DNA of 64,000 bases from a phage, in sequence record PZ445511.1; one strand, 5' to 3'. The notes under the pieces were generated by a model that saw only the letters and a program-made list of their open reading frames with translations, was not told the origin of the DNA and made no database searches. Shown here piece by piece: positions 17,302 to 29,855 of this stretch (its first letter is position 1; every line of letters starts with the position of its first letter). A program made the translations under genes and the position numbers.

Positions 17302-17784
17302 ATGAAAAGGAAAGAATACCCTACTAAAGAAATACTTGAAAAATATTTTGTAGCTGATCCTGATAATGGGATACTATATAGGAAAACAAAGAAAGGTTTG
17401 AAAGAGTGTTGTGCCAATAATAAGAAATCACATCCAGATGTGGGATTTCAGGGCGACACCTATCAACTGCATGTCTTATTATTTATTATGTACTATGGAT
17501 ATAGGCCTGAAGAAGTAGATCATAAGGATACTAATCCTAGAAATAATAGGAAAAATAATCTAAGGGACGCCTCTAGATCGCAAAATAATGCGAATAGAAA
17601 CCAACAATGCAATAATACTTCTGGGTACAAAGGAGTAAGTTGGGAAGGCTCTTCCTGGAGATACCAAGTAAGACATGAAGGAAAAAATTACAGTAAAAGA
17701 GGGTTTAAAACTGCGGAAGAGGCTTTCGAGGCCTCTAAGATATTAAGAGAATCCTTACATAAAGAATTTACTAACTTTGGTTAG
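17302..17784 (+). CDS. HNH homing endonuclease (HNH plus AP2)
   Basis: 160 aa; YGYRPEEVDHKD..N..N and GYKGVSW motifs. Confidence 0.7.
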   Translation: MKRKEYPTKEILEKYFVADPDNGILYRKTKKGLKECCANNKKSHPDVGFQGDTYQLHVLLFIMYYGYRPEEVDHKDTNPRNNRKNNLRDASRSQNNANRNQQCNNTSGYKGVSWEGSSWRYQVRHEGKNYSKRGFKTAEEAFEASKILRESLHKEFTNFG

Positions 17785-18414
17785 TAATAGTGGGGTGCCG
17801 AAACCACTTATGTAACAACACTGCCGTCCTAGTATAATAGGTATTATTAGGGCTTCACCGCCTGAAGATGTGGGTTCGAGTCCCACGGTCGGAAAGAGTT
17901 GGATAACTGGTGCTTCTAATGGCGAAGCAATCGCAGGCAGTTGCGCACTGCCAAAACCACGCGGTAGTTGGTTCCAGGCTAACCAACCACTCTTGAAAAG
18001 TATATACTACGGTTTTGCTTGTTCAGGAAGCTTCGCATCGAAAATCGGAGGTGCGATTTTATCAGACCGCGTGGAGGACGTCTCTCCGTTAAGTGACGAA
18101 AAGTGGGACGATTCAGGTAGAGCTGGATATGGAACACCTATACATATGCGGAGTGCGCACAAAGCATATTGCGGTGGTACTAAACGAAATTAGGAGTCAT
18201 GACCTGCACAAGTTTAGTATGTCATAACCGATGTACATTCAGTACAAAAACCACTGAAGCTAAGATAGATAGTCACCTTGACTTAAACTGGAAGATATTG
18301 TCTGACGGAAGGGCTGCAGAGCTTAATCTGAGGGGGCTGACCCTACCTACCGTCGGGTATCTTTAAGAGTTCTTACGAGAACTCTTAAAGATACCTAAAC
18401 ATTAAGGAATACTG
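17785..18414 (+). ncRNA. structured non-coding region (T-arm-like element and 17-bp perfect hairpin); identity unresolved
   Basis: 630 bp without convincing ORF or promoter; gtgggttcgagtcccac at 17870-17886; hairpin 18357-18394. Confidence 0.3.
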
Positions 18415-24369: not shown

Positions 24370-24493
24370 AGTTACCTAATTTGGAAACATATCTGAATGA
24401 GAAGTAATTAAGCGAGTTGCTTTGAGGGATAAAGTCAGGATAGCCGGAAATATTCCACCTTGAGTTTAACCGACTTACTTTTCATTCAAATAT

Positions 24494-24571
24494 GGGGGAT
24501 TGGCTCAGTGGCGACGGCGCCTGGCTGTAGACCGGGTATATCACGCGGAGGTTCGAGTCCTCCATCCCCCA
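24494..24571 (+). tRNA. tRNA-Tyr(GUA)
   Basis: acceptor gggggat/atccccc, anticodon loop ctgtaga, 10-nt variable region, discriminator A, CCA. Confidence 0.6.
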
Positions 24572-24582
24572 CCAAAATTAAT

Positions 24583-24654
24583 GCACCTATCGTCTAATGG
24601 TTAGGACATCAGGATTTCAATCTGAGAATTGAACTCCGATTCTCCGTGGGTGTG
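24583..24654 (+). tRNA. tRNA-like, probable tRNA-Glu(UUC) with degenerate T-arm
   Basis: acceptor gcaccta/tgggtgt with G-U pairs, good D and anticodon stems, loop atttcaa, CCA encoded. Confidence 0.4.
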
Positions 24655-24666
24655 CCAATTAATAAT

Positions 24667-24734
24667 TGGGGTACACATAGGTTGCTAGTGGGCCTCCAAA
24701 ACCCATGAAAAGGTTTCGAATACCTTTACCCCTG
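24667..24734 (+). tRNA. tRNA-Trp(CCA)-like with shortened D-arm
   Basis: 68 nt; anticodon loop ctccaaa, T-loop ttcgaat, 1-72 U-U mismatch; CCA encoded. Confidence 0.4.
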
Positions 24735-24743
24735 CCAATATTT

Positions 24744-24815
24744 GCACCTTTAGCTGAGATGGATTAGCGCTTGCCTGAAGAGCTTGAGAGGTTCGTTCAA
24801 TTCGAACAGGGTGCA
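24744..24815 (+). tRNA. tRNA-Phe(GAA)-like
   Basis: acceptor gcacctt/agggtgc, anticodon loop ctgaaga, two U-U mismatches in anticodon stem, CCA encoded. Confidence 0.5.
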
Positions 24816-24835
24816 CCAATTTGAAGGAGATGCTG

Positions 24836-25108
24836 ATGCATCCTGAAAACTTCTTTATATACTGTACTAGTCCTTTGCTTAAACGCCGGATTAATAAAGT
24901 ATATCACTACAGAGCTAGTCAACAGCCTTATGTTTATGATTCTAGTGGAGATCATATTCCACTTGAGCAACTAGGGACTGATTATATGGTTTTGAAGCAC
25001 TTTAATGAGGCGAAGATCTCTAGCGTTCATAACCGACAAAACTCTAAAACGTGGTGGCATAAGAAGCGTAAGAAAGGCATCAAATTTCTTAAAAATGTAG
25101 TTGCTTAA
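24836..25108 (+). CDS. hypothetical basic protein
   Basis: ORF 24821..25108 (TTG); ATG 24836 with AGGAG RBS. Confidence 0.5.
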   Translation: MHPENFFIYCTSPLLKRRINKVYHYRASQQPYVYDSSGDHIPLEQLGTDYMVLKHFNEAKISSVHNRQNSKTWWHKKRKKGIKFLKNVVA

Positions 25109-25129
25109 ATCCTTAAAGTTCTGTATAAT
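25101..25129 (+). promoter_or_regulatory. early promoter (TTGCTT-17-TATAAT)
   Basis: promoter family member, overlaps 3' end of upstream ORF. Confidence 0.7.
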
Positions 25130-25157
25130 TATTACATAAATTGAACTGGAGAACTAG

Positions 25158-25346
25158 ATGAAAGCACCTAAACCGAAATTAGTTAAGTTCGACTGCTGTG
25201 ATACTGAAATCTTATTTACTAAGTTTGGTGAATTTAAGATGTGTGAATGTGGAACATGTGGTTACGATCATGGTGATGGATATTATTGCAGAACCCTAGG
25301 GCCTTCTGAACTAATCCACTTCTCATGGCCGGAAAGTAAAGAATAA
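25158..25346 (+). CDS. Cys-rich small protein (putative zinc ribbon)
   Basis: 62 aa; CC..C.C..C..C pattern. Confidence 0.5.
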   Translation: MKAPKPKLVKFDCCDTEILFTKFGEFKMCECGTCGYDHGDGYYCRTLGPSELIHFSWPESKE

Positions 25347-25348
25347 TA

Positions 25349-25421
25349 CGACCGTTGGCTGAATGGCTTAGGCGGAGGCCTGCAAAACCTCCTTATGTGA
25401 GTTCGAATCTCATGCGGTCGT
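25349..25421 (+). tRNA. tRNA-Cys(GCA)
   Basis: acceptor cgaccgt/gcggtcg, anticodon loop ctgcaaa, T-loop ttcgaat, CCA encoded. Confidence 0.6.
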
Positions 25422-25426
25422 CCAAT

Positions 25427-25567
25427 TTGCTGAAAGAATTGTTAAATCAATTCAGGCACGCGTAGGAACACTGCCTCAGTAATTGAAAGATGAGGCACGG
25501 TTTGGAGAGGTATGCCGCTACACGCTACGGTGCTAACTCCGTCTAGGTGAAAATCCTAGTCAGCAAT
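25427..25567 (+). ncRNA. 141-nt tRNA-like RNA (acceptor-like stem plus T-arm-like hairpin around a long insert)
   Basis: ttgctga...tcagcaa terminal pairing; ctagg-tgaaaat-cctag hairpin; internal hairpins; not a canonical tRNA. Confidence 0.3.
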
Positions 25568-25576
25568 ATAAATTTA

Positions 25577-25656
25577 GGGTCGTTAGCCAAGCGGTTTGGC
25601 GGTGGACTGTTAATCCATGTCGAAAGACAACGTAGGTTCGAATCCTACACGGCCCG
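25577..25656 (+). tRNA. tRNA with GUU (Asn) anticodon on a type-II-like body
   Basis: acceptor gggtcgt/acggccc, 3-bp D stem, anticodon stem gtgga/tccat, loop ctgttaa, 13-nt variable arm, discriminator G, CCA. Confidence 0.5.
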
Positions 25657-25762
25657 CCATATTCTATGTAGGATTAAGTAAACCGGTAGCCAACCAGCTA
25701 TCATTACTGATATCGAATTCAGTCACAGATACCATTTTTCACTAACAACTGAGGAAATAGAT

Positions 25763-25948
25763 ATGACAACTCGTGCAATTGCTCGACTAGAAGCTGATCG
25801 TGATAATCTGATTAATAATATTAAGGTTCGTGGTAATATTATTAAGGCTCTGAAAGCTGAACTTCTTGAAGAACTTCAAGGTCAAGTAGAGCGTCGTGAA
25901 GCTCTAAAAGAGGTTGAGGAAGCTATCGAAAAACTCAAGGCTGAATAA
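25763..25948 (+). CDS. hypothetical coiled-coil protein
   Basis: 61 aa with GAGGAAA RBS. Confidence 0.45.
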   Translation: MTTRAIARLEADRDNLINNIKVRGNIIKALKAELLEELQGQVERREALKEVEEAIEKLKAE

Positions 25949-25951
25949 ATT

Positions 25952-26533
25952 ATGCACGGAATATCCTTACCCATTCCAGGGTTTGAGGAGTACTTAGTAA
26001 GTTTGGATGGGTTAGTATTTAGTATCAAATCAAACAAAATACTAACCCCAATAACCAGTAATTATGGATACTTATCTATACGTCTCCATAAAAATGGTCA
26101 ACAGAGAAATACCGGTGTACATAGGATTTTAGCATGTGCATTTAAGAAATTACCAAGTCTAGACTCTGAACTAGAAGTTGACCATATTAACACAGACATT
26201 ACTTATTGGGGTCTTAATAACTTACAAGTGCTCACAAAAGAGCAGCATCTAGAAAAGACTTTAAAAGATAAAGGATTTAGTAAACTAAATCATGATAATT
26301 GTTGTAAGGATTGTGGTAAAGCTATTTCTTTAAAAGCTGAAAAATGTCAGGAGTGCTCTTCACATAAACCAAAAGATATCTCTATAACTAAAGAAATAAT
26401 CGAGGTTACAGTAAGAGAGCTAGGCTGGTCAGGTGCAGGGAGAAAGTTAAATTATTCAGATAATGGGTTGCGTAAAAGATACACTTCTTTAGGAGGCAAT
26501 CCTAAAGAACTTAAAAAGTTAAAGGTACTATAG
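25952..26533 (+). CDS. HNH homing endonuclease with C-terminal Cys4 zinc ribbon
   Basis: 193 aa; EVDHIN..N motif; CKDCG...CQEC; 3' end overlaps tRNA-Asp by 10 nt. Confidence 0.7.
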   Translation: MHGISLPIPGFEEYLVSLDGLVFSIKSNKILTPITSNYGYLSIRLHKNGQQRNTGVHRILACAFKKLPSLDSELEVDHINTDITYWGLNNLQVLTKEQHLEKTLKDKGFSKLNHDNCCKDCGKAISLKAEKCQECSSHKPKDISITKEIIEVTVRELGWSGAGRKLNYSDNGLRKRYTSLGGNPKELKKLKVL

Positions 26534-26595
26534 TCTAACGGTTAGGATACTCCCCTGTCACGGGAGAGGTAGGGTTTCGATTACCCTTAGTACCG
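26524..26595 (+). tRNA. tRNA-Asp(GUC)
   Basis: acceptor ggtacta/tagtacc, anticodon stem ctccc/gggag, loop ctgtcac, T-loop ttcgatt, CCA. Confidence 0.75.
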
Positions 26596-26604
26596 CCAAA
26601 TTAT

Positions 26605-26678
26605 ACATCCATAGCTCAACTGGTCAGAGCTACCGCCTCTTAAGCGGAGGGTTGAAGGTTCAAGTCCTTCTGGGAGTA
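26605..26678 (+). tRNA. tRNA-Lys(CUU)
   Basis: D-stem gctc/gagc, anticodon loop ctcttaa, T-arm gaagg-ttcaagt-ccttc, CCA; one acceptor mismatch. Confidence 0.5.
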
Positions 26679-26686
26679 CCAAACAA

Positions 26687-26880
26687 ATAGAGTAAAGGCT
26701 ACAGTAGGTGCACCCTTACGGACTGCTACACCGGACTCTATTCATTAACAAACATTCTAGCGTGGTGGAGAGGGGACACCAGCTGTGCGAGGGTAGAAGC
26801 TTGTTCGATTCAAGTGAAAGAATGGTTCTCGTAAATCCGCAGCAGTGATAGTAGGTTCAAGTCCTACCTAGATTGACTTA
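26687..26880 (+). ncRNA. unresolved tRNA-like RNAs (two T-arm-like hairpins, one 66-nt acceptor-paired element)
   Basis: atagagt...actctat pairing; T-arm-like gcttg-ttcgatt-caagt and gtagg-ttcaagt-cctac without matching acceptors. Confidence 0.3.
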
Positions 26881-26884
26881 TTAT

Positions 26885-26955
26885 GCGTTCGTAGTTAAAA
26901 GGTATAATTTTTGGTTGCCAACCAGAAGTTGAGGGTTCGATTCCCTCCGACCGCA
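26885..26955 (+). tRNA. tRNA-Gly(GCC)
   Basis: anticodon stem tttgg/ccaga, loop ttgccaa, T-arm gaggg-ttcgatt-ccctc, CCA. Confidence 0.6.
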
Positions 26956-26959
26956 CCAA

Positions 26960-27180
26960 ATTTAGGGTTCTGCTTCCTAGAGAACGGACTCCTAGATAAA
27001 CAAGGCGATGAGTTTCCGGCCGGTTCTAGTCGCTGAAAATCCTCCCGACCAGGTAGGTGTAGGTAAACGAAAGTTTACTTATTGAGTAGGTTCCGATAGA
27101 TCGGCGGATCTATTCTGGCATTTAAGAGAAGTCTCGCAAACTTCTTTGTCAGCAGAGCGTTTGAAGCGTGAGGTGGCCTA
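26960..27180 (+). ncRNA. non-coding tRNA-cluster spacer with hairpins, candidate small RNA
   Basis: 220 nt, no ORF or canonical tRNA; gtcgctgaaaatcctcccgacc element resembles the T-arm-like hairpin of the 25427 element. Confidence 0.25.
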
Positions 27181-27209
27181 CACAATAAGTAAATTTATTA
27201 AAAACTCAT

Positions 27210-27238
27210 TTGCTATTTCACTTAATTCTCTTTATAAT
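27210..27238 (+). promoter_or_regulatory. early promoter (TTGCTA-17-TATAAT) for a tRNA block
   Basis: promoter family member directly upstream of tRNA-Pro. Confidence 0.7.
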
Positions 27239-27270
27239 ATATCTTATAAAGTGAGTTAACAAAGAATATT

Positions 27271-27345
27271 CTCCGTGTAGCTCAGTTTGGCCAGAGCGTT
27301 CCGTTTGGGGCGGTAGGGTCGGGGGTTCAAATCCTCCCACGGAGA
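27271..27345 (+). tRNA. tRNA-Pro(UGG)
   Basis: acceptor ctccgtg/cacggag perfect, anticodon loop tttgggg, T-loop ttcaaat, CCA. Confidence 0.65.
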
Positions 27346-27354
27346 CCAAACAAT

Positions 27355-27429
27355 TGCGGGTTAGATCTCTGGTAGAGATCGCTAGTCTCATAAGCTAGAA
27401 AGAGGTAGGTTCGATTCCTACACCCGCTT
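27355..27429 (+). tRNA. tRNA-Met/Ile(CAU), 1-72 unpaired
   Basis: anticodon stem ctagt/gctag, loop ctcataa, T-arm gtagg-ttcgatt-cctac, CCA; position 1-72 U-U. Confidence 0.5.
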
Positions 27430-27451
27430 CCAATTTAATAGAGGATACGAA

Positions 27452-27616
27452 ATGAAATTATTTCGATTGGTAGTAAGTGATAGACGGTCTAGCAAAGATC
27501 GTTCGAAGTATACCTTAGCCCATTATGGGAAAGATGAAAATGAAGTAATGGCTGAATTTGGTATTAATCATCGCTACTTAGAAGTTTACTCTATTAAGGA
27601 AGTTTATCCGTATTAA
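27452..27616 (+). CDS. hypothetical small protein (54 aa)
   Basis: GAGGA RBS 6 nt before ATG; stop abuts tRNA-Lys. Confidence 0.4.
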   Translation: MKLFRLVVSDRRSSKDRSKYTLAHYGKDENEVMAEFGINHRYLEVYSIKEVYPY

Positions 27617-27691
27617 GGGTCGTTAGCTCAATTGGTTAGTAGCACTTGCCTTTTAAGCAATAGGTTGAAGGTTCGAGTCCTTCACGACCCA
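27617..27691 (+). tRNA. tRNA-Lys(UUU)
   Basis: acceptor gggtcgt/acgaccc perfect, anticodon loop cttttaa, T-arm gaagg-ttcgagt-ccttc, CCA. Confidence 0.7.
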
Positions 27692-27703
27692 CCAAATTAC
27701 TTT

Positions 27704-27774
27704 GCTCGGTTAGTTTAATGGGAGAACCCCGTCTTTACACGGCGGTTGCGATAGTTCGATTCTATCACCGAGTA
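27704..27774 (+). tRNA. tRNA-Val(UAC)
   Basis: anticodon stem ccgtc/ggcgg, loop tttacac, T-arm gatag-ttcgatt-ctatc, CCA. Confidence 0.7.
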
Positions 27775-27802
27775 CCAATTAACTCAAAATAAGGAATTGC
27801 AA

Positions 27803-28156
27803 ATGCAATTATCAAGCAAGATTCAAGGCTATTTTGGTCATGTAACAATGGAGTTCGCTATCTCTAAAGGTTGGGATTTCGAGCAAGATCTAGCTGAGTT
27901 CTACAAAGATATTGATCTGAACGTACCATACATGGGACTCTCCACTGGTCAAGAGATCACAGAAGGCGATGTGTTCAAGGCAAGTCAAGGTGAGGTAACA
28001 CCTAATTTTGCCAAGTTCTGGTTAGGACTTACTTTGAAGGAAGATGCACCAGAGGATGGTGTGGTTATGCAGAGTATGCACTCTGGAAGCTCTGATTACC
28101 TTTTCGTTAGCGACGTTAAGGAACTACAAGAAATCGCTAAAAATGTACTTGCTTGA
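27803..28156 (+). CDS. hypothetical protein
   Basis: ORF 27797..28156; ATG 27803 with AAGGA RBS; stop overlaps next promoter -35. Confidence 0.55.
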   Translation: MQLSSKIQGYFGHVTMEFAISKGWDFEQDLAEFYKDIDLNVPYMGLSTGQEITEGDVFKASQGEVTPNFAKFWLGLTLKEDAPEDGVVMQSMHSGSSDYLFVSDVKELQEIAKNVLA

Positions 28157-28177
28157 TGCTTAATTTCTTGTTATAAT
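28149..28177 (+). promoter_or_regulatory. early promoter (TTGCTT-17-TATAAT) for a tRNA block
   Basis: promoter family member. Confidence 0.7.
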
Positions 28178-28179
28178 AT

Positions 28180-28439
28180 TTATATAAATTGATGAGGAGA
28201 AATCCTCATCAAAGTTCACTAAGGTATTAGCTCGACCTAGGGCTGGCTGCCAAAAAGCACAATTGCAATTAGACCCCTAATGGCGGGGGATACTTTGCAA
28301 TAAGTTCTAGATTAGTCCACTAGATTCAGTGGCAACTGAATAGTGTATCGGGTTTGTGAAGAGCGGTTATCCTCTACTGGCTAATGTCTGAGGGTAATAC
28401 GCACACCGAGCTAATAGCCTTAGTAAACTTAAAGATTTT
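28180..28439 (+). ncRNA. 260-nt structured leader or small RNA ahead of the tRNA-Ala pair
   Basis: hairpins gatgagga-gaaa-tcctcatc (28191-28210) and ccact-agattc-agtgg; no ORF. Confidence 0.3.
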
Positions 28440-28515
28440 GGGGAATGGGTCTGCTTGGAGTGGACACCTCGCTTGCACCGAGGATATCAGAAGAGTTCGA
28501 ATCTCTTATTCTCCA
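28440..28515 (+). tRNA. tRNA-Ala(UGC)-like
   Basis: G3-U70 pair, anticodon stem cctcg/cgagg, loop cttgcac, T-arm aagag-ttcgaat-ctctt, CCA; atypical D and variable lengths. Confidence 0.5.
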
Positions 28516-28523
28516 CCAAATTC

Positions 28524-28596
28524 GGGGTCATAGGTTATTTGGTTAAACTTACTGCCTTGCAAGCAGTGGAACTCAGTTCAATTCTGAGTGACTCCA
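28524..28596 (+). tRNA. tRNA-Ala(UGC)
   Basis: G3-U70 pair, anticodon stem actgc/gcagt, loop cttgcaa, T-arm ctcag-ttcaatt-ctgag, CCA. Confidence 0.65.
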
Positions 28597-28618
28597 CCAA
28601 ACAAATTAAGGAAATAAT

Positions 28619-28837
28619 ATGGTATTCTTAGCAGCCTCTGTAGTTCTTGCAGCTTTAGCACTAGCTATCTATTTTAGAACTATTAAAGATTTAGCTAAAG
28701 AAAAGAAAACTTTCTTTACTGATTATTCTTGGGGCGCTCCATATAACGTCCGCTTTATCAGCTTAGAAGCTATGCTGATAATGGTATTCAGTGGCATAGG
28801 TTCCATTGTTGCAGGGTTACTATTTATTTCTAACTAA
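28619..28837 (+). CDS. small membrane protein
   Basis: 72 aa with two hydrophobic helices. Confidence 0.5.
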   Translation: MVFLAASVVLAALALAIYFRTIKDLAKEKKTFFTDYSWGAPYNVRFISLEAMLIMVFSGIGSIVAGLLFISN

Positions 28838-29530: not shown

Positions 29531-29667
29531 AATCTTGAAGTATGCCGGAATCGGTAGACGGGGCTTCCTAAAGGGCGTAAGGGGAACATCCACTCCTCAT
29601 AAGATACCCGAAAACGAGGCTGAGATAACTGGTCTATCTCGTGAAGGTTCGAGTCCTTCTGCTTCTT
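29531..29667 (+). ncRNA. tRNA-like RNA with canonical T-arm but no clean cloverleaf
   Basis: T-arm gaagg-ttcgagt-ccttc at 29643-29659 preceded by hairpin gagata-actggtc-tatctc; best acceptor partner aggggaa at 29580 has a mismatch; no CCA. Confidence 0.3.
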
Positions 29668-29669
29668 GA

Positions 29670-29855
29670 TATTCATCAATGGCTCAAAGTGTAACGGTGC
29701 TATTTGATGCTCTTAGTAAGACTTTCCCGACATGCGTTCGGGAGTAAGCTGCTAAGGCTAGAGTAGAAGAGTTTCGGAGAGCCGCCACAATTGAAGTCTT
29801 TAGAATGGGTATCGCCCTTTAGCCCCTCCGAAAGGGATAACTAGAGATTTCAATT
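29670..29855 (+). ncRNA. structured non-coding segment bounded by 11-bp inverted repeat
   Basis: ccacaattgaa (29776-29786) and ttcaattgtgg (29849-29859) flank a GC hairpin ccctttagcccctccgaaaggg. Confidence 0.25.

What the first reader, a model, noticed from the sequence alone, without database searches (positions are those of the whole stretch)
24583..28515. Several tRNAs in the cluster are structurally degenerate
The Glu(UUC)-like tRNA has a non-pairing T-arm, the Trp(CCA)-like tRNA is 68 nt with a shortened D-arm, the Phe(GAA)-like tRNA has two U-U mismatches in its anticodon stem, and one of two tandem tRNA-Ala(UGC) genes has odd D and variable lengths. If my folds are right the phage either tolerates marginal tRNAs or uses some as regulatory or decoy RNAs.
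Basis: partly seen in the sequence, partly recalled or inferred. Interest (0 to 1): 0.35.

Follow-up and report, generated by a model that had tools for sequence, protein, structure and literature searches.

The report
Odd tRNA genes in T5-like phage
The four odd-looking tRNA genes in this T5-like Salmonella phage are real: two are conserved, unusual but working tRNA types, one is phage T5's own short tRNA-Trp, and one is a tRNA-Glu gene broken by a 9-base flip, so this is mostly known phage biology.

Summary
The window is about 99.9% identical to Salmonella phage S147, a T5-like phage of genus Epseptimavirus. They have four different explanations.

1. **Glu-like gene (24583-24657).** It is an intact tRNA-Glu allele in which 9 bases of the T arm were inverted between a 6-bp inverted repeat. 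The Rfam tRNA score drops from 56.9 to 35.2 bits. It is probably a dead gene. Eighteen Salmonella phage records carry it.

2. **Trp-like gene (24667-24737).** It is the orthologue of T5's curated 'tRNAW'. It scores 23.8 bits, below the Rfam threshold of 29. It is 94-97% conserved between two genera where the adjacent ORF is only about 76% conserved. Its function is unresolved.

3. **Phe.** It is 100% identical to T5 tRNA-Phe, which a review cites as an E. coli PheRS substrate. The tandem U·U in the anticodon stem is a conserved trait of a phage tRNA-Phe subfamily whose other stems covary heavily.

4. **Ala-1.** It belongs to a family found in 415 phage records. Its odd features (G8, G9, 9-nt D loop, 7-8-nt variable loop) are conserved, 12 of 21 pairs show compensatory changes, and G3·U70 never varies.

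'Tolerated marginal tRNA' fits Glu and possibly Trp, but not Phe or Ala-1. Nothing supports a decoy role directly.

The parts
24583..24657 (+). tRNA-Glu(UUC)-like gene with encoded CCA. It is 'allele B' of the Glu slot carrying a T-arm inversion, and is a probable pseudogene.
   Evidence: Rfam tRNA 35.2 bits, against 56.9 bits for the intact allele at L007:9743-9814. ARAGORN is negative at all thresholds tried. Stem table. The MFE fold loses the anticodon arm.
24630..24638 (+). Inverted 9-nt segment: TGAACTCCG here, CGGAGTTCA in intact alleles.
   Evidence: Reverse-complementing gene positions 48-56 of the L007 allele reproduces the window sequence. This removes all 5 T-arm differences and leaves 1 mismatch at the discriminator.
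24624..24629 (+). Left arm (GAGAAT) of the 6-bp inverted repeat that flanks the inversion.
   Evidence: Read from the sequence and the inversion scan.
24639..24644 (+). Right arm (ATTCTC) of the 6-bp inverted repeat that flanks the inversion.
   Evidence: Read from the sequence and the inversion scan.
24667..24737 (+). Short tRNA-Trp(CCA)-like gene, 68 nt plus CCA. It is the orthologue of T5/BF23 'tRNAW'.
   Evidence: Rfam 23.8 bits with a full-length model alignment. ARAGORN finds it at -ps90. It is 94.4% identical to T5 AY543070 tRNAW. It occurs in 118 phage records.
24744..24818 (+). tRNA-Phe(GAA), identical to T5 tRNA-Phe. It has a tandem U·U mismatch at 28:42 and 29:41 (window 24771/24785 and 24772/24784).
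   Evidence: Family analysis.
28440..28518 (+). tRNA-Ala(UGC) 'Ala-1', a member of a conserved non-canonical family with G8, G9, a 9-nt D loop, a 7-nt variable loop, G3·U70 and A73.
   Evidence: Rfam 38.1 bits. Covariation: 99.4% of cells paired and 12 of 21 pairs with compensatory changes. Found in 415 phage records.
28524..28599 (+). tRNA-Ala(UGC) 'Ala-2', a canonical-looking tandem partner.
   Evidence: Rfam 59.6 bits. Found in 303 phage records, including Felixounavirus at about 81% identity.
24494..24574 (+). tRNA-Tyr(GUA), the first gene of the conserved Tyr-Glu-Trp-Phe block.
   Evidence: The order is the same in T5.
25662..25734 (+). Homologue of T5 RNA3, annotated there as 'putative tRNA-like RNA'.
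   Evidence: blastn 92% identity to the AY543070 misc_RNA.
26753..26877 (+). Homologue of T5 RNA2, annotated there as 'tRNA-like stable RNA with unknown functions'.
   Evidence: blastn 84% identity.
27086..27184 (+). Homologue of T5 RNAIV, a stable RNA of unknown function.
   Evidence: blastn 89% identity.
28225..28359 (+). Homologue of T5 RNA2H, a stable RNA, lying just upstream of Ala-1.
   Evidence: blastn 77% identity.
25952..26533 (+). HNH endonuclease ORF inside the tRNA cluster, overlapping the start of tRNA-Asp.
   Evidence: ORF list. The S147 annotation calls it 'HNH endonuclease'. T5 has TflI, TflII and TflIV in the same cluster.

Best explanation
The region is the tRNA cassette of a T5-like phage. 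Each tRNA slot exists in several interchangeable alleles across the family, and the four odd genes are four different cases.

(a) **Glu-like gene: a broken tRNA gene.** In an ancestor of the S147 clade, the 9 bases between a 6-bp inverted repeat (GAGAAT/ATTCTC) were flipped. This converted the T stem and T loop CGGAG-UUCAAUU into UGAAC-UCCGAUU. The transcript is predicted to form a new 8-bp hairpin instead of a T arm and to lose its anticodon arm. It most likely no longer works in translation and is tolerated because the host supplies tRNA-Glu.

(b) **Trp-like gene: T5's own 'tRNAW'.** It is a short tRNA with a reduced D arm and U1·U72. It is kept nearly unchanged across two genera, so it probably does something, but whether it decodes UGG is not shown.

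(c) **Phe: T5 tRNA-Phe itself.** Its tandem non-Watson-Crick pairs in the anticodon stem are a conserved trait of a phage tRNA-Phe subfamily.

(d) **Ala-1: a widespread tRNA-Ala type.** It has an altered core, and it is the only tRNA-Ala in many relatives.

Shown here: the anatomy, the inversion, the allele distribution and the covariation. Inferred: loss of function for Glu; function for Ala-1 and Phe (for Phe also from a literature citation); and the idea that the unusual conserved features help the phage tRNAs escape host tRNA-cutting defence nucleases.
For: **Identity of the locus.** The window is 99.9% identical to S147. The gene order Tyr-Glu-Trp-Phe matches T5.

**Alleles.** The Glu slot has at least 3 alleles and the Trp slot has 2.

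**Glu.**
- One inversion explains all 5 T-arm differences.
- The score falls from 56.9 to 35.2 bits.
- The MFE fold shows the new 8-bp hairpin.
- There is no donor sequence elsewhere in the window.
- The same allele is in 18 records, about a dozen Salmonella phages.
- An independent 19-nt tandem duplication hits the same allele in L012.

**Trp.**
- It is annotated tRNAW in AY543070 and AJ604530.
- It is 94-97% identical between genera, against 75-77% for the adjacent ORF.

**Phe.**
- It is 100% identical to the T5 gene.
- T5 tRNA-Phe is cited as a PheRS substrate (PMC9976931).
- Of 70 unique family members, 46 have a fully paired anticodon stem. The CUNGC/GCNUG subfamily is mismatched at 28:42 and 29:41, while all 7 acceptor pairs and 4 of 5 T-stem pairs show compensatory changes.

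**Ala-1.**
- 99.4% of cells are paired, 12 of 21 pairs have changes on both sides, and G3·U70 is invariant.
- It is the sole tRNA-Ala in many loci and occurs in 415 records.

**Context.** T5 tRNAs counter PARIS, and T5 tRNA-Lys resists AriB through changes at anticodon-stem positions 39 and 41. T5 mutants with tRNA deletions are viable (PMC12409363).
Against: - No expression, processing or charging data exist for this phage, so 'dead' (Glu) and 'working' (Ala-1, Trp) are inferences.
- The Glu-like gene is 100% identical in all 18 carriers with no further decay. That could mean it is young, or that it is kept for some other use.
- High conservation of Trp next to an identical Phe could reflect a recently exchanged recombination patch rather than selection.
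- Variants of the short Trp allele argue against strict decoding function. BF23 has the anticodon loop CUACAAA and T5 has G3·U70.
- I chose the 19 sequences of the Phe subfamily alignment A2 to include the mismatch-bearing members, so the mismatch frequencies are not an unbiased sample. The unbiased count is 46 of 70 fully paired.
- Position 29:41 is paired (A:U) in a few close relatives, so it may simply be unconstrained rather than selected to be open.
Confidence: 0.72

Rival explanations
1. The unusual conserved features are adaptations that let phage tRNAs escape host tRNA-targeting defence nucleases while remaining usable in translation. The features in question are the tandem mismatches at 28:42 and 29:41 plus C32 and G37 in Phe, the altered core and long variable loop in Ala-1, and U·U pairs in the acceptor stem of the alternative Trp allele.
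For: - T5 tRNA-Lys resists AriB through changes at anticodon-stem positions 39 and 41, and AriB cuts between 40 and 41 (PMC12409363).
- Septu cuts the variable loop of tRNA-Tyr (abstract of PMC13096335).
- The host tRNA-Phe anticodon arm GGGGA-UUGAAAA-UCCCC is fully paired and differs from the phage arm at every stem position and at loop positions 32 and 37.
- U28 and U42 are conserved across members whose acceptor stems differ completely.
Against: - No nuclease is known to be blocked by these particular features.
- Position 29:41 looks unconstrained rather than selected.
- Many members of the same Phe family have fully paired stems (46 of 70).
- This idea does not explain the Glu inversion.
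Confidence: 0.25
2. All four genes are decaying relics under relaxed selection, because the host supplies every tRNA.
For: - tRNA-region deletions are viable in T5 (PMC12409363, PMC11464382).
- Mismatches are frequent across the cluster.
- The Glu allele was hit independently by an inversion and by a duplication.
- There are anticodon and acceptor variants in the short Trp allele.
Against: - Ala-1 and Phe show dense compensatory covariation with their odd features held constant.
- Phe is 97-100% identical and Trp 94-97% identical where the neighbouring ORF is about 76% identical.
- Ala-1 is the only tRNA-Ala in many relatives.
Confidence: 0.08
3. The Glu-like and Trp-like RNAs are kept for a job outside translation. 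One option is as tRNA-shaped processing signals for RNase P and RNase Z in the polycistronic transcript. The other is as decoys that soak up tRNA-targeting nucleases, like the stable tRNA-like RNAs of T5.
For: - The T5 record lists stable tRNA-like RNAs (RNA1, RNA2, RNA3) in the cluster, and their homologues lie in this window.
- Both genes keep an intact acceptor stem and an encoded CCA.
- The Glu-like gene shows no further decay in 18 records.
- Trp is conserved across genera.
- The authors of PMC12409363 raise competition for AriB as a possibility.
Against: There is no direct evidence. The carriers of the Glu inversion are close relatives, so lack of decay says little. Other phages do well with canonical alleles, or with none, in the same slots.
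Confidence: 0.12
4. The hand folds are wrong, and all four are ordinary tRNAs that software would score normally.
For: Three of the four exceed the Rfam gathering score of 29 bits.
Against:
- Trp is below threshold at 23.8 bits.
- Glu loses 21.7 bits relative to its intact allele.
- ARAGORN misses both Glu and Trp.
Confidence: 0.02

Closest known systems
Bacteriophage T5 tRNA gene cluster (GenBank AY543070, Ksenzenko laboratory annotation: tRNAY, tRNAE, tRNAW, tRNAF, tRNAA and stable RNAs RNA1-3, RNAI, III, IV, X, 2H)
   Same: The block Tyr-Glu-Trp-Phe has the same order and spacing. Phe is 100% identical and the short Trp is 94.4% identical. Homologues of RNA3, RNA2, RNAIV, RNA2H, RNA1, RNAI and RNAX are present, and HNH endonuclease genes are interspersed.
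   Different: The Glu slot holds a different allele (B, inverted) from T5's 77-nt allele A. The Ala slot holds Ala-1 plus Ala-2 instead of T5's single 75-nt allele. The window has extra genes: Lys-CUU, Gly-GCC, Arg-ACG and Leu-UAA.
Small inversions of a hairpin loop between short inverted repeats. From my own knowledge, this mutation class is well described in plastid non-coding DNA, and template-switch mutagenesis at quasipalindromes is described in E. coli.
   Same: A 9-nt spacer is exactly reverse-complemented between perfect 6-bp inverted-repeat arms.
   Different: Here the event lies inside a tRNA gene and destroys its T arm. I did not test the mechanism (replication template switch or recombination).
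Phage tRNAs hardened against host tRNases: T5 tRNA-Lys, Thr and Asn against PARIS AriB, and T5 tRNA-Tyr against retron and PtuAB effectors
   Same: It is the same gene cluster. Published escape changes lie in the anticodon stem at positions 39 and 41, next to the 41/42 mismatch positions of Phe (PMC12409363; PMC11555353).
   Different: No nuclease is known whose action is blocked by the Phe, Ala-1 or Trp features, so function by analogy is only inferred.
Canonical bacterial elongator tRNA (Rfam RF00005; E. coli tRNA-Phe as reference)
   Same: Cloverleaf with a 7-bp acceptor stem, a 7-nt anticodon loop with U33, an encoded CCA, and identity elements (G3·U70 and A73 in both Ala genes; GAA anticodon in Phe).
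   Different: Scores are low (23.8-45.8 bits). There are tandem U·U pairs in the Phe anticodon stem, G8 and a 7-nt variable loop in Ala-1, a reduced D arm and U1·U72 in Trp, and no T arm in Glu.

Membership tests
tRNA (Rfam RF00005) | Covariance-model score at or above the gathering score of 29 bits | tested here: inconclusive
   Met by Phe (45.8), Ala-1 (38.1) and the Glu-like gene (35.2). Not met by the Trp-like gene (23.8).
tRNA (Rfam RF00005) | T arm with a 5-bp stem and a T-loop motif (U54 U55 C56, G53:C61) | tested here: inconclusive
   Met by Trp, Phe, Ala-1 and Ala-2. Not met by the Glu-like gene, which has 3 of 5 pairs, C55 and C53·C61. Its intact allele has CGGAG-UUCAAUU-CUCCG.
tRNA (Rfam RF00005) | D arm with a 3-4-bp stem and a loop carrying G18 G19 | tested here: inconclusive
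   Normal in Glu and Phe. Ala-1 has a 4-bp stem with a 9-nt loop. Trp has at most 3 bp with a 4-5-nt loop, and the model alignment marks its D stem as non-paired.
tRNA (Rfam RF00005) | Cloverleaf supported by compensatory base changes among relatives | tested here: met
   Ala-1 family: 12 of 21 pairs changed on both sides, 0 of 500 shuffles reach the observed value. Phe family: 16 of 21 pairs, 0 of 500. Not testable for the short Trp, because all 118 records are at least 94% identical. For Glu, alleles B and C differ by paired changes in the anticodon and T stems (read; no formal count made).
Functional elongator tRNA | Expressed, processed and aminoacylated by the cognate synthetase | not testable with these tools
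   The only evidence is literature for the identical T5 tRNA-Phe sequence (Kholod et al. 1997, as cited in PMC9976931). Nothing is available for Glu, Trp or Ala-1 of this phage.
tRNA-Ala | G3·U70 wobble pair and A73 discriminator (AlaRS identity; established knowledge) | tested here: met
   Both Ala-1 and Ala-2 have G3·U70 and A73. G3·U70 is invariant in all 8 Ala-1 family members.
Orthologue of T5 tRNA genes (AY543070) | Same slot in the Tyr-Glu-Trp-Phe block, and sequence similarity to the T5 gene | tested here: inconclusive
   The slot order is the same for all. Phe is 100% and Trp 94.4% identical, so both meet the test. Glu and Ala-1 are different alleles with no blastn match to the T5 genes, so they do not meet it.
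tRNA pseudogene | A disabling lesion relative to an intact close relative | tested here: met
   For the Glu-like gene only: a 9-nt inversion, a loss of 21.7 bits, and a predicted misfold.
tRNA pseudogene | Loss of constraint after the lesion (further decay) | tested here: inconclusive
   All 18 carriers are 100% identical over the 49 nt tested, but they are close relatives.
T5 stable tRNA-like RNAs (RNA1, RNA2, RNA3) | Sequence homology to the annotated T5 misc_RNA features | tested here: not met
   The four flagged genes do not match these features. The homologues lie elsewhere, in intergenic gaps at 25662-25734, 26753-26877 and other sites.

The most novel reading that the evidence does not exclude
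The persistent non-Watson-Crick pairs in these phage tRNAs are selected 'armour' against defence nucleases that read or cut tRNA helices. The pairs are U28·U42 with an open 29:41 in the anticodon stem of a whole tRNA-Phe subfamily, tandem U·U at 2:71 and 3:70 in the acceptor stem of the alternative Trp allele, and the rebuilt core of Ala-1. This would extend the published 'anticodon-loop mutation' escape idea to stems and to the tRNA core. The T-arm-less Glu RNA and the short Trp RNA would be retained as non-decoding decoys or processing elements.
Probability: 0.2. Interest if true: 0.6.

Novelty: new member of a known kind. Interest (0 to 1): 0.3.

Why it matters
**Annotation.** Standard tRNA finders miss or mis-score several genes of T5-like phages.
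- The short Trp is unannotated in the automated records among the 118 that carry it.
- Ala-1 is often unannotated.
- Only one of the 18 records with the inverted Glu calls it tRNA-Glu.

tRNA counts and 'complete tRNA set' statements for these therapeutic-candidate phages are therefore unreliable in both directions.

**Biology.** T5 tRNAs are now known to be counter-defence tools. It is useful to know which odd features are conserved by selection (Phe mismatches, Ala-1 core) and which are accidents (Glu inversion), because this shows where to look for new tRNA-nuclease escape determinants. The Glu case is also a clean natural example of a hairpin-loop inversion disabling a gene in one step.

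Tried and rejected
- **Gene conversion as the source of the Glu T-arm changes.** No other copy of the inverted segment, or of its complement, occurs in the window with up to 3 mismatches. I prefer in-situ inversion.
- **Distant relatives of the short Trp, to test covariation.**
  - blastn of the phage collection found only records at least 90% identical.
  - An exact T-arm pattern found only the 5 known T5-like contigs.
  - An anticodon-arm pattern found two unrelated tRNA-Trp genes and chance hits.
  - Covariation for Trp is therefore untestable with these data.
- **T-loop inversion as the source of the A54/U58 T loops in the Phe family.** The loops are not reverse complements of each other (read), so I rejected this.
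- **Thermodynamic z-scores.** None of the tRNAs, good or bad, differs from shuffled sequences, so the scores are uninformative.
- **Literature.** The 1997 FEBS Letters paper on T5 tRNA-Phe is not held. No supplementary tables are held for the Schlafen paper that sequenced T5 tRNA ends. I found no tRNA-seq evidence for T5 Trp or Glu.
- **T5 record notes on amber suppression.** The notes say Glu, Trp and Phe do not become amber suppressors when the anticodon is changed. I did not use these as evidence of non-function, because from established knowledge the anticodon is itself an identity element for GluRS, TrpRS and PheRS.

Full report
**What the window is.** The stretch 24400-28700 is 99.9% identical over its full length to Salmonella phage S147 (NC_048012), genus Epseptimavirus, family Demerecviridae, which are T5-like phages. 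ARAGORN finds 28 tRNA genes in the window, all on the + strand between 17.8 and 31.7 kb. Rfam finds 27 at its gathering score.

**Checking the observation.** I parsed every gene into cloverleaf parts and compared the result with the covariance-model alignments.
- **Glu-like gene (24583-24654).** The acceptor, D and anticodon arms are sound. The T arm is TGAAC-TCCGATT-CTCCG, with 3 of 5 pairs and no U55. It scores 35.2 bits. ARAGORN never finds it, even at a 70% threshold.
- **Trp-like gene (24667-24734).** It is 68 nt long, with U1·U72, C31·A39 and a D arm of about 3 bp. It scores 23.8 bits, below the threshold of 29. ARAGORN finds it only at a 90% threshold.
- **Phe (24744-24815).** It has U28·U42 and U29·U41 and scores 45.8 bits.
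- **Ala-1 (28440-28515).** It has G8, G9, a 9-nt D loop and a 7-nt variable loop. It scores 38.1 bits, against 59.6 for Ala-2.

It should be seen against a cluster in which about a third of the genes carry at least one stem mismatch.

**The cluster is T5's cluster, in a mosaic of alleles.** The curated T5 record AY543070 has tRNA-Tyr, Glu, Trp and Phe in the same order. It also has a series of 'stable RNAs', some described as tRNA-like. Homologues of RNA3, RNA2, RNAIV, RNA2H, RNA1, RNAI and RNAX lie in the intergenic gaps of the window. I collected 23 related IMG/VR loci through the small ORF that follows Phe, and added T5, S147 and more distant Demerecviridae. Running ARAGORN and alignments on these gave the following.
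- The Glu slot holds at least three alleles.
- The Trp slot holds two: a 77-nt form and the 71-nt short form.
- The Ala slot holds five length classes.

**Glu: one inversion.** The window's gene differs from 'allele B' (L007, L009, L005) at five alternating positions within nine bases. Reverse-complementing positions 48-56 of allele B (CGGAGTTCA to TGAACTCCG) reproduces the window sequence exactly, apart from the discriminator base.
- The flipped segment sits between perfect 6-bp inverted repeats, GAGAAT at 24624-24629 and ATTCTC at 24639-24644.
- The intact allele scores 56.9 bits with a perfect T arm, so the inverted gene loses 21.7 bits.
- The inverted gene is predicted to fold into a new 8-bp hairpin, GAGAAUUG/CGAUUCUC, at the expense of the anticodon arm.
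- No other copy of the segment exists in the window.
- The inverted allele is present, 100% identical over 49 nt, in 18 records from about a dozen Salmonella phages.
- In another lineage (L012) the same allele carries a 19-nt tandem duplication.

I conclude that this is a tRNA-Glu gene disabled in one step and since tolerated. That fits the published viability of T5 mutants lacking many tRNA genes (PMC12409363; PMC11464382).

**Trp: T5's tRNAW.** The short form is 94.4% identical to the gene annotated tRNA-Trp in T5 and BF23 by the Ksenzenko laboratory. It occurs in 118 phage records, and the automated annotations leave it blank.
- It has no detectable relatives below 90% identity, so covariation cannot be tested.
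- Between Epseptimavirus and Tequintavirus it is 94-97% identical, while the ORF 17 nt downstream of Phe is only 75-77% identical. This suggests constraint, although a shared recombination patch with the adjacent Phe gene is possible.
- Three observations argue against strict decoding function. BF23 has the anticodon loop CUACAAA. T5 has G3·U70. The window has a private G9-to-A change that removes one D-stem pair.
- The alternative 77-nt allele is also unusual. It has tandem U·U at 2:71 and 3:70 and scores 36.3 bits.

The function of the short Trp remains open.

**Phe: a conserved oddity.** The gene is identical to T5 tRNA-Phe. A review cites that tRNA as a substrate of E. coli PheRS (PMC9976931).
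- Its D arm, TAGCTGAGATGGATTAGC, defines a large phage tRNA-Phe family.
- Among 70 unique members, 46 have a fully paired anticodon stem. A subfamily with the arm CUNGC-CUGAAGA-GCNUG is mismatched at 28:42 (nearly always U·U) and at 29:41 (U·U, A·C, C·C, and occasionally A:U).
- In a 19-sequence alignment, all 7 acceptor pairs and 4 of 5 T-stem pairs show compensatory changes. Pair 28:42 is unpaired in 15 sequences and 29:41 in 12. I chose these sequences to include the mismatch-bearing members, so one search is the unbiased count.
- The host tRNA-Phe arm GGGGA-UUGAAAA-UCCCC is fully paired.

The U·U pairs are therefore an old, maintained trait of a structurally constrained tRNA, not decay.

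**Ala-1: a conserved non-canonical family.** The 79-80-nt type occurs in Tequintavirus, Epseptimavirus, Novosibvirus, Serratia phage Slocum and others. It is the only tRNA-Ala in many of them.
- Eight distinct members are 99.4% paired on the cloverleaf.
- Twelve of 21 pairs are changed on both sides, and no shuffle out of 500 reaches this.
- G3·U70, G8, G9 and the D-loop frame are invariant, and the long variable loop is kept throughout (7 nt, 8 nt in one member).
- It is in 415 phage records, against 303 for the Ala-2 type.

The 'odd' copy is therefore the widespread one, and the canonical-looking Ala-2 is the narrower addition.

**Mechanism and comparison.** The best-supported picture is a counter-defence and supply cassette whose slots are filled by exchangeable alleles. 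HNH endonuclease genes are interspersed in the cluster. Individual genes in the cassette are dispensable and sometimes break. Published work shows three relevant things.
- T5 tRNA-Lys, Thr and Asn neutralise PARIS, and escape maps to anticodon-stem positions 39 and 41.
- T5 tRNA-Tyr counters retron effectors.
- A Schlafen nuclease cuts anticodon arms of host and T5 tRNAs.

That the Phe, Ala-1 and Trp features serve such escape is an inference by analogy. I give it about 0.2-0.25.

**Verdict.** The genes are members of a known system, the T5 tRNA cluster, which was annotated long ago. The new details are the inversion origin of the Glu pseudogene, the conserved mismatch motif of the Phe subfamily, and the breadth of the Ala-1 family. 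Interest is modest.

Noticed in passing
window 17781-18399 (ARAGORN 'tRNA-SeC(tca)' at 17822-17895): The gene that ARAGORN and the S147 annotation call tRNA-Sec(UCA) lies inside the homologue of T5 'RNAX', a 719-nt stable RNA of unknown function. It scores only 33 bits, parses poorly as a cloverleaf and ends in AAA rather than CCA. At the same place in T5, ARAGORN calls 'Ser(act)'. It is probably a tRNA-like element and not a selenocysteine tRNA.
   Followed up: partly
window 25662-25734, 26753-26877, 27086-27184, 28225-28359, 29534-29680, 29681-29787: The intergenic gaps of the cluster hold homologues (77-92% identity) of T5 stable RNAs RNA3, RNA2, RNAIV, RNA2H, RNA1 and RNAI. None of these is annotated in S147.
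   Followed up: partly
L007:9826-9902 and most other T5-like loci (the Trp slot): The alternative 77-nt tRNA-Trp allele has tandem U·U mismatches at 2:71 and 3:70 of the acceptor stem (Rfam 36.3 bits). In L018 the same allele carries a CTA anticodon, which makes it a potential amber suppressor.
   Followed up: partly
L012 (IMGVR_UViG_2974619798, chee24-type), the Glu slot: A 19-nt tandem duplication (TTCAATCTGAGAATCGGAG twice) lies inside tRNA-Glu allele B, bounded by the TTCAAT repeats of the anticodon loop and the T loop. It is a second, independent lesion in the same allele.
   Followed up: no
phage tRNA-Phe family (loci L033-L152): In 38 of 70 unique members the T loop reads A54...U58 (ATCGTTA) instead of U54...A58. 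This looks like a swap of the two bases of the reverse-Hoogsteen pair. ARAGORN misses several such genes.
   Followed up: partly
window 24494-24574 and the Tyr slot of related loci: tRNA-Tyr comes in length classes of 81, 84, 87, 88 and 91 nt that differ in the variable arm. The window has the shortest, with a 10-nt variable region. This may be relevant because Septu is reported to cut the variable loop of tRNA-Tyr (PMC13096335).
   Followed up: no
window 27355-27432: The initiator-type tRNA-Met has a U1·U72 mismatch at the top of the acceptor stem. The Trp-like gene shares the same U1·U72, which is unusual for an elongator tRNA.
   Followed up: no
window 24675: The window has A at position 9 of the Trp-like gene, where S147 and the best matches among the 118 database records have G. 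No record is 100% identical to the window; the best is 98.6%.
   Followed up: partly
L071 (175-kb contig), L029 (Enterobacter phage PG7, T4-like), Erwinia phage FBB1, Cronobacter phage EspYZU08: Ala-1 copies identical to the window, and close relatives of the T5-type Phe, occur in unrelated large phages (T4-like and others). This points to exchange of single tRNA genes between phage families.
   Followed up: no
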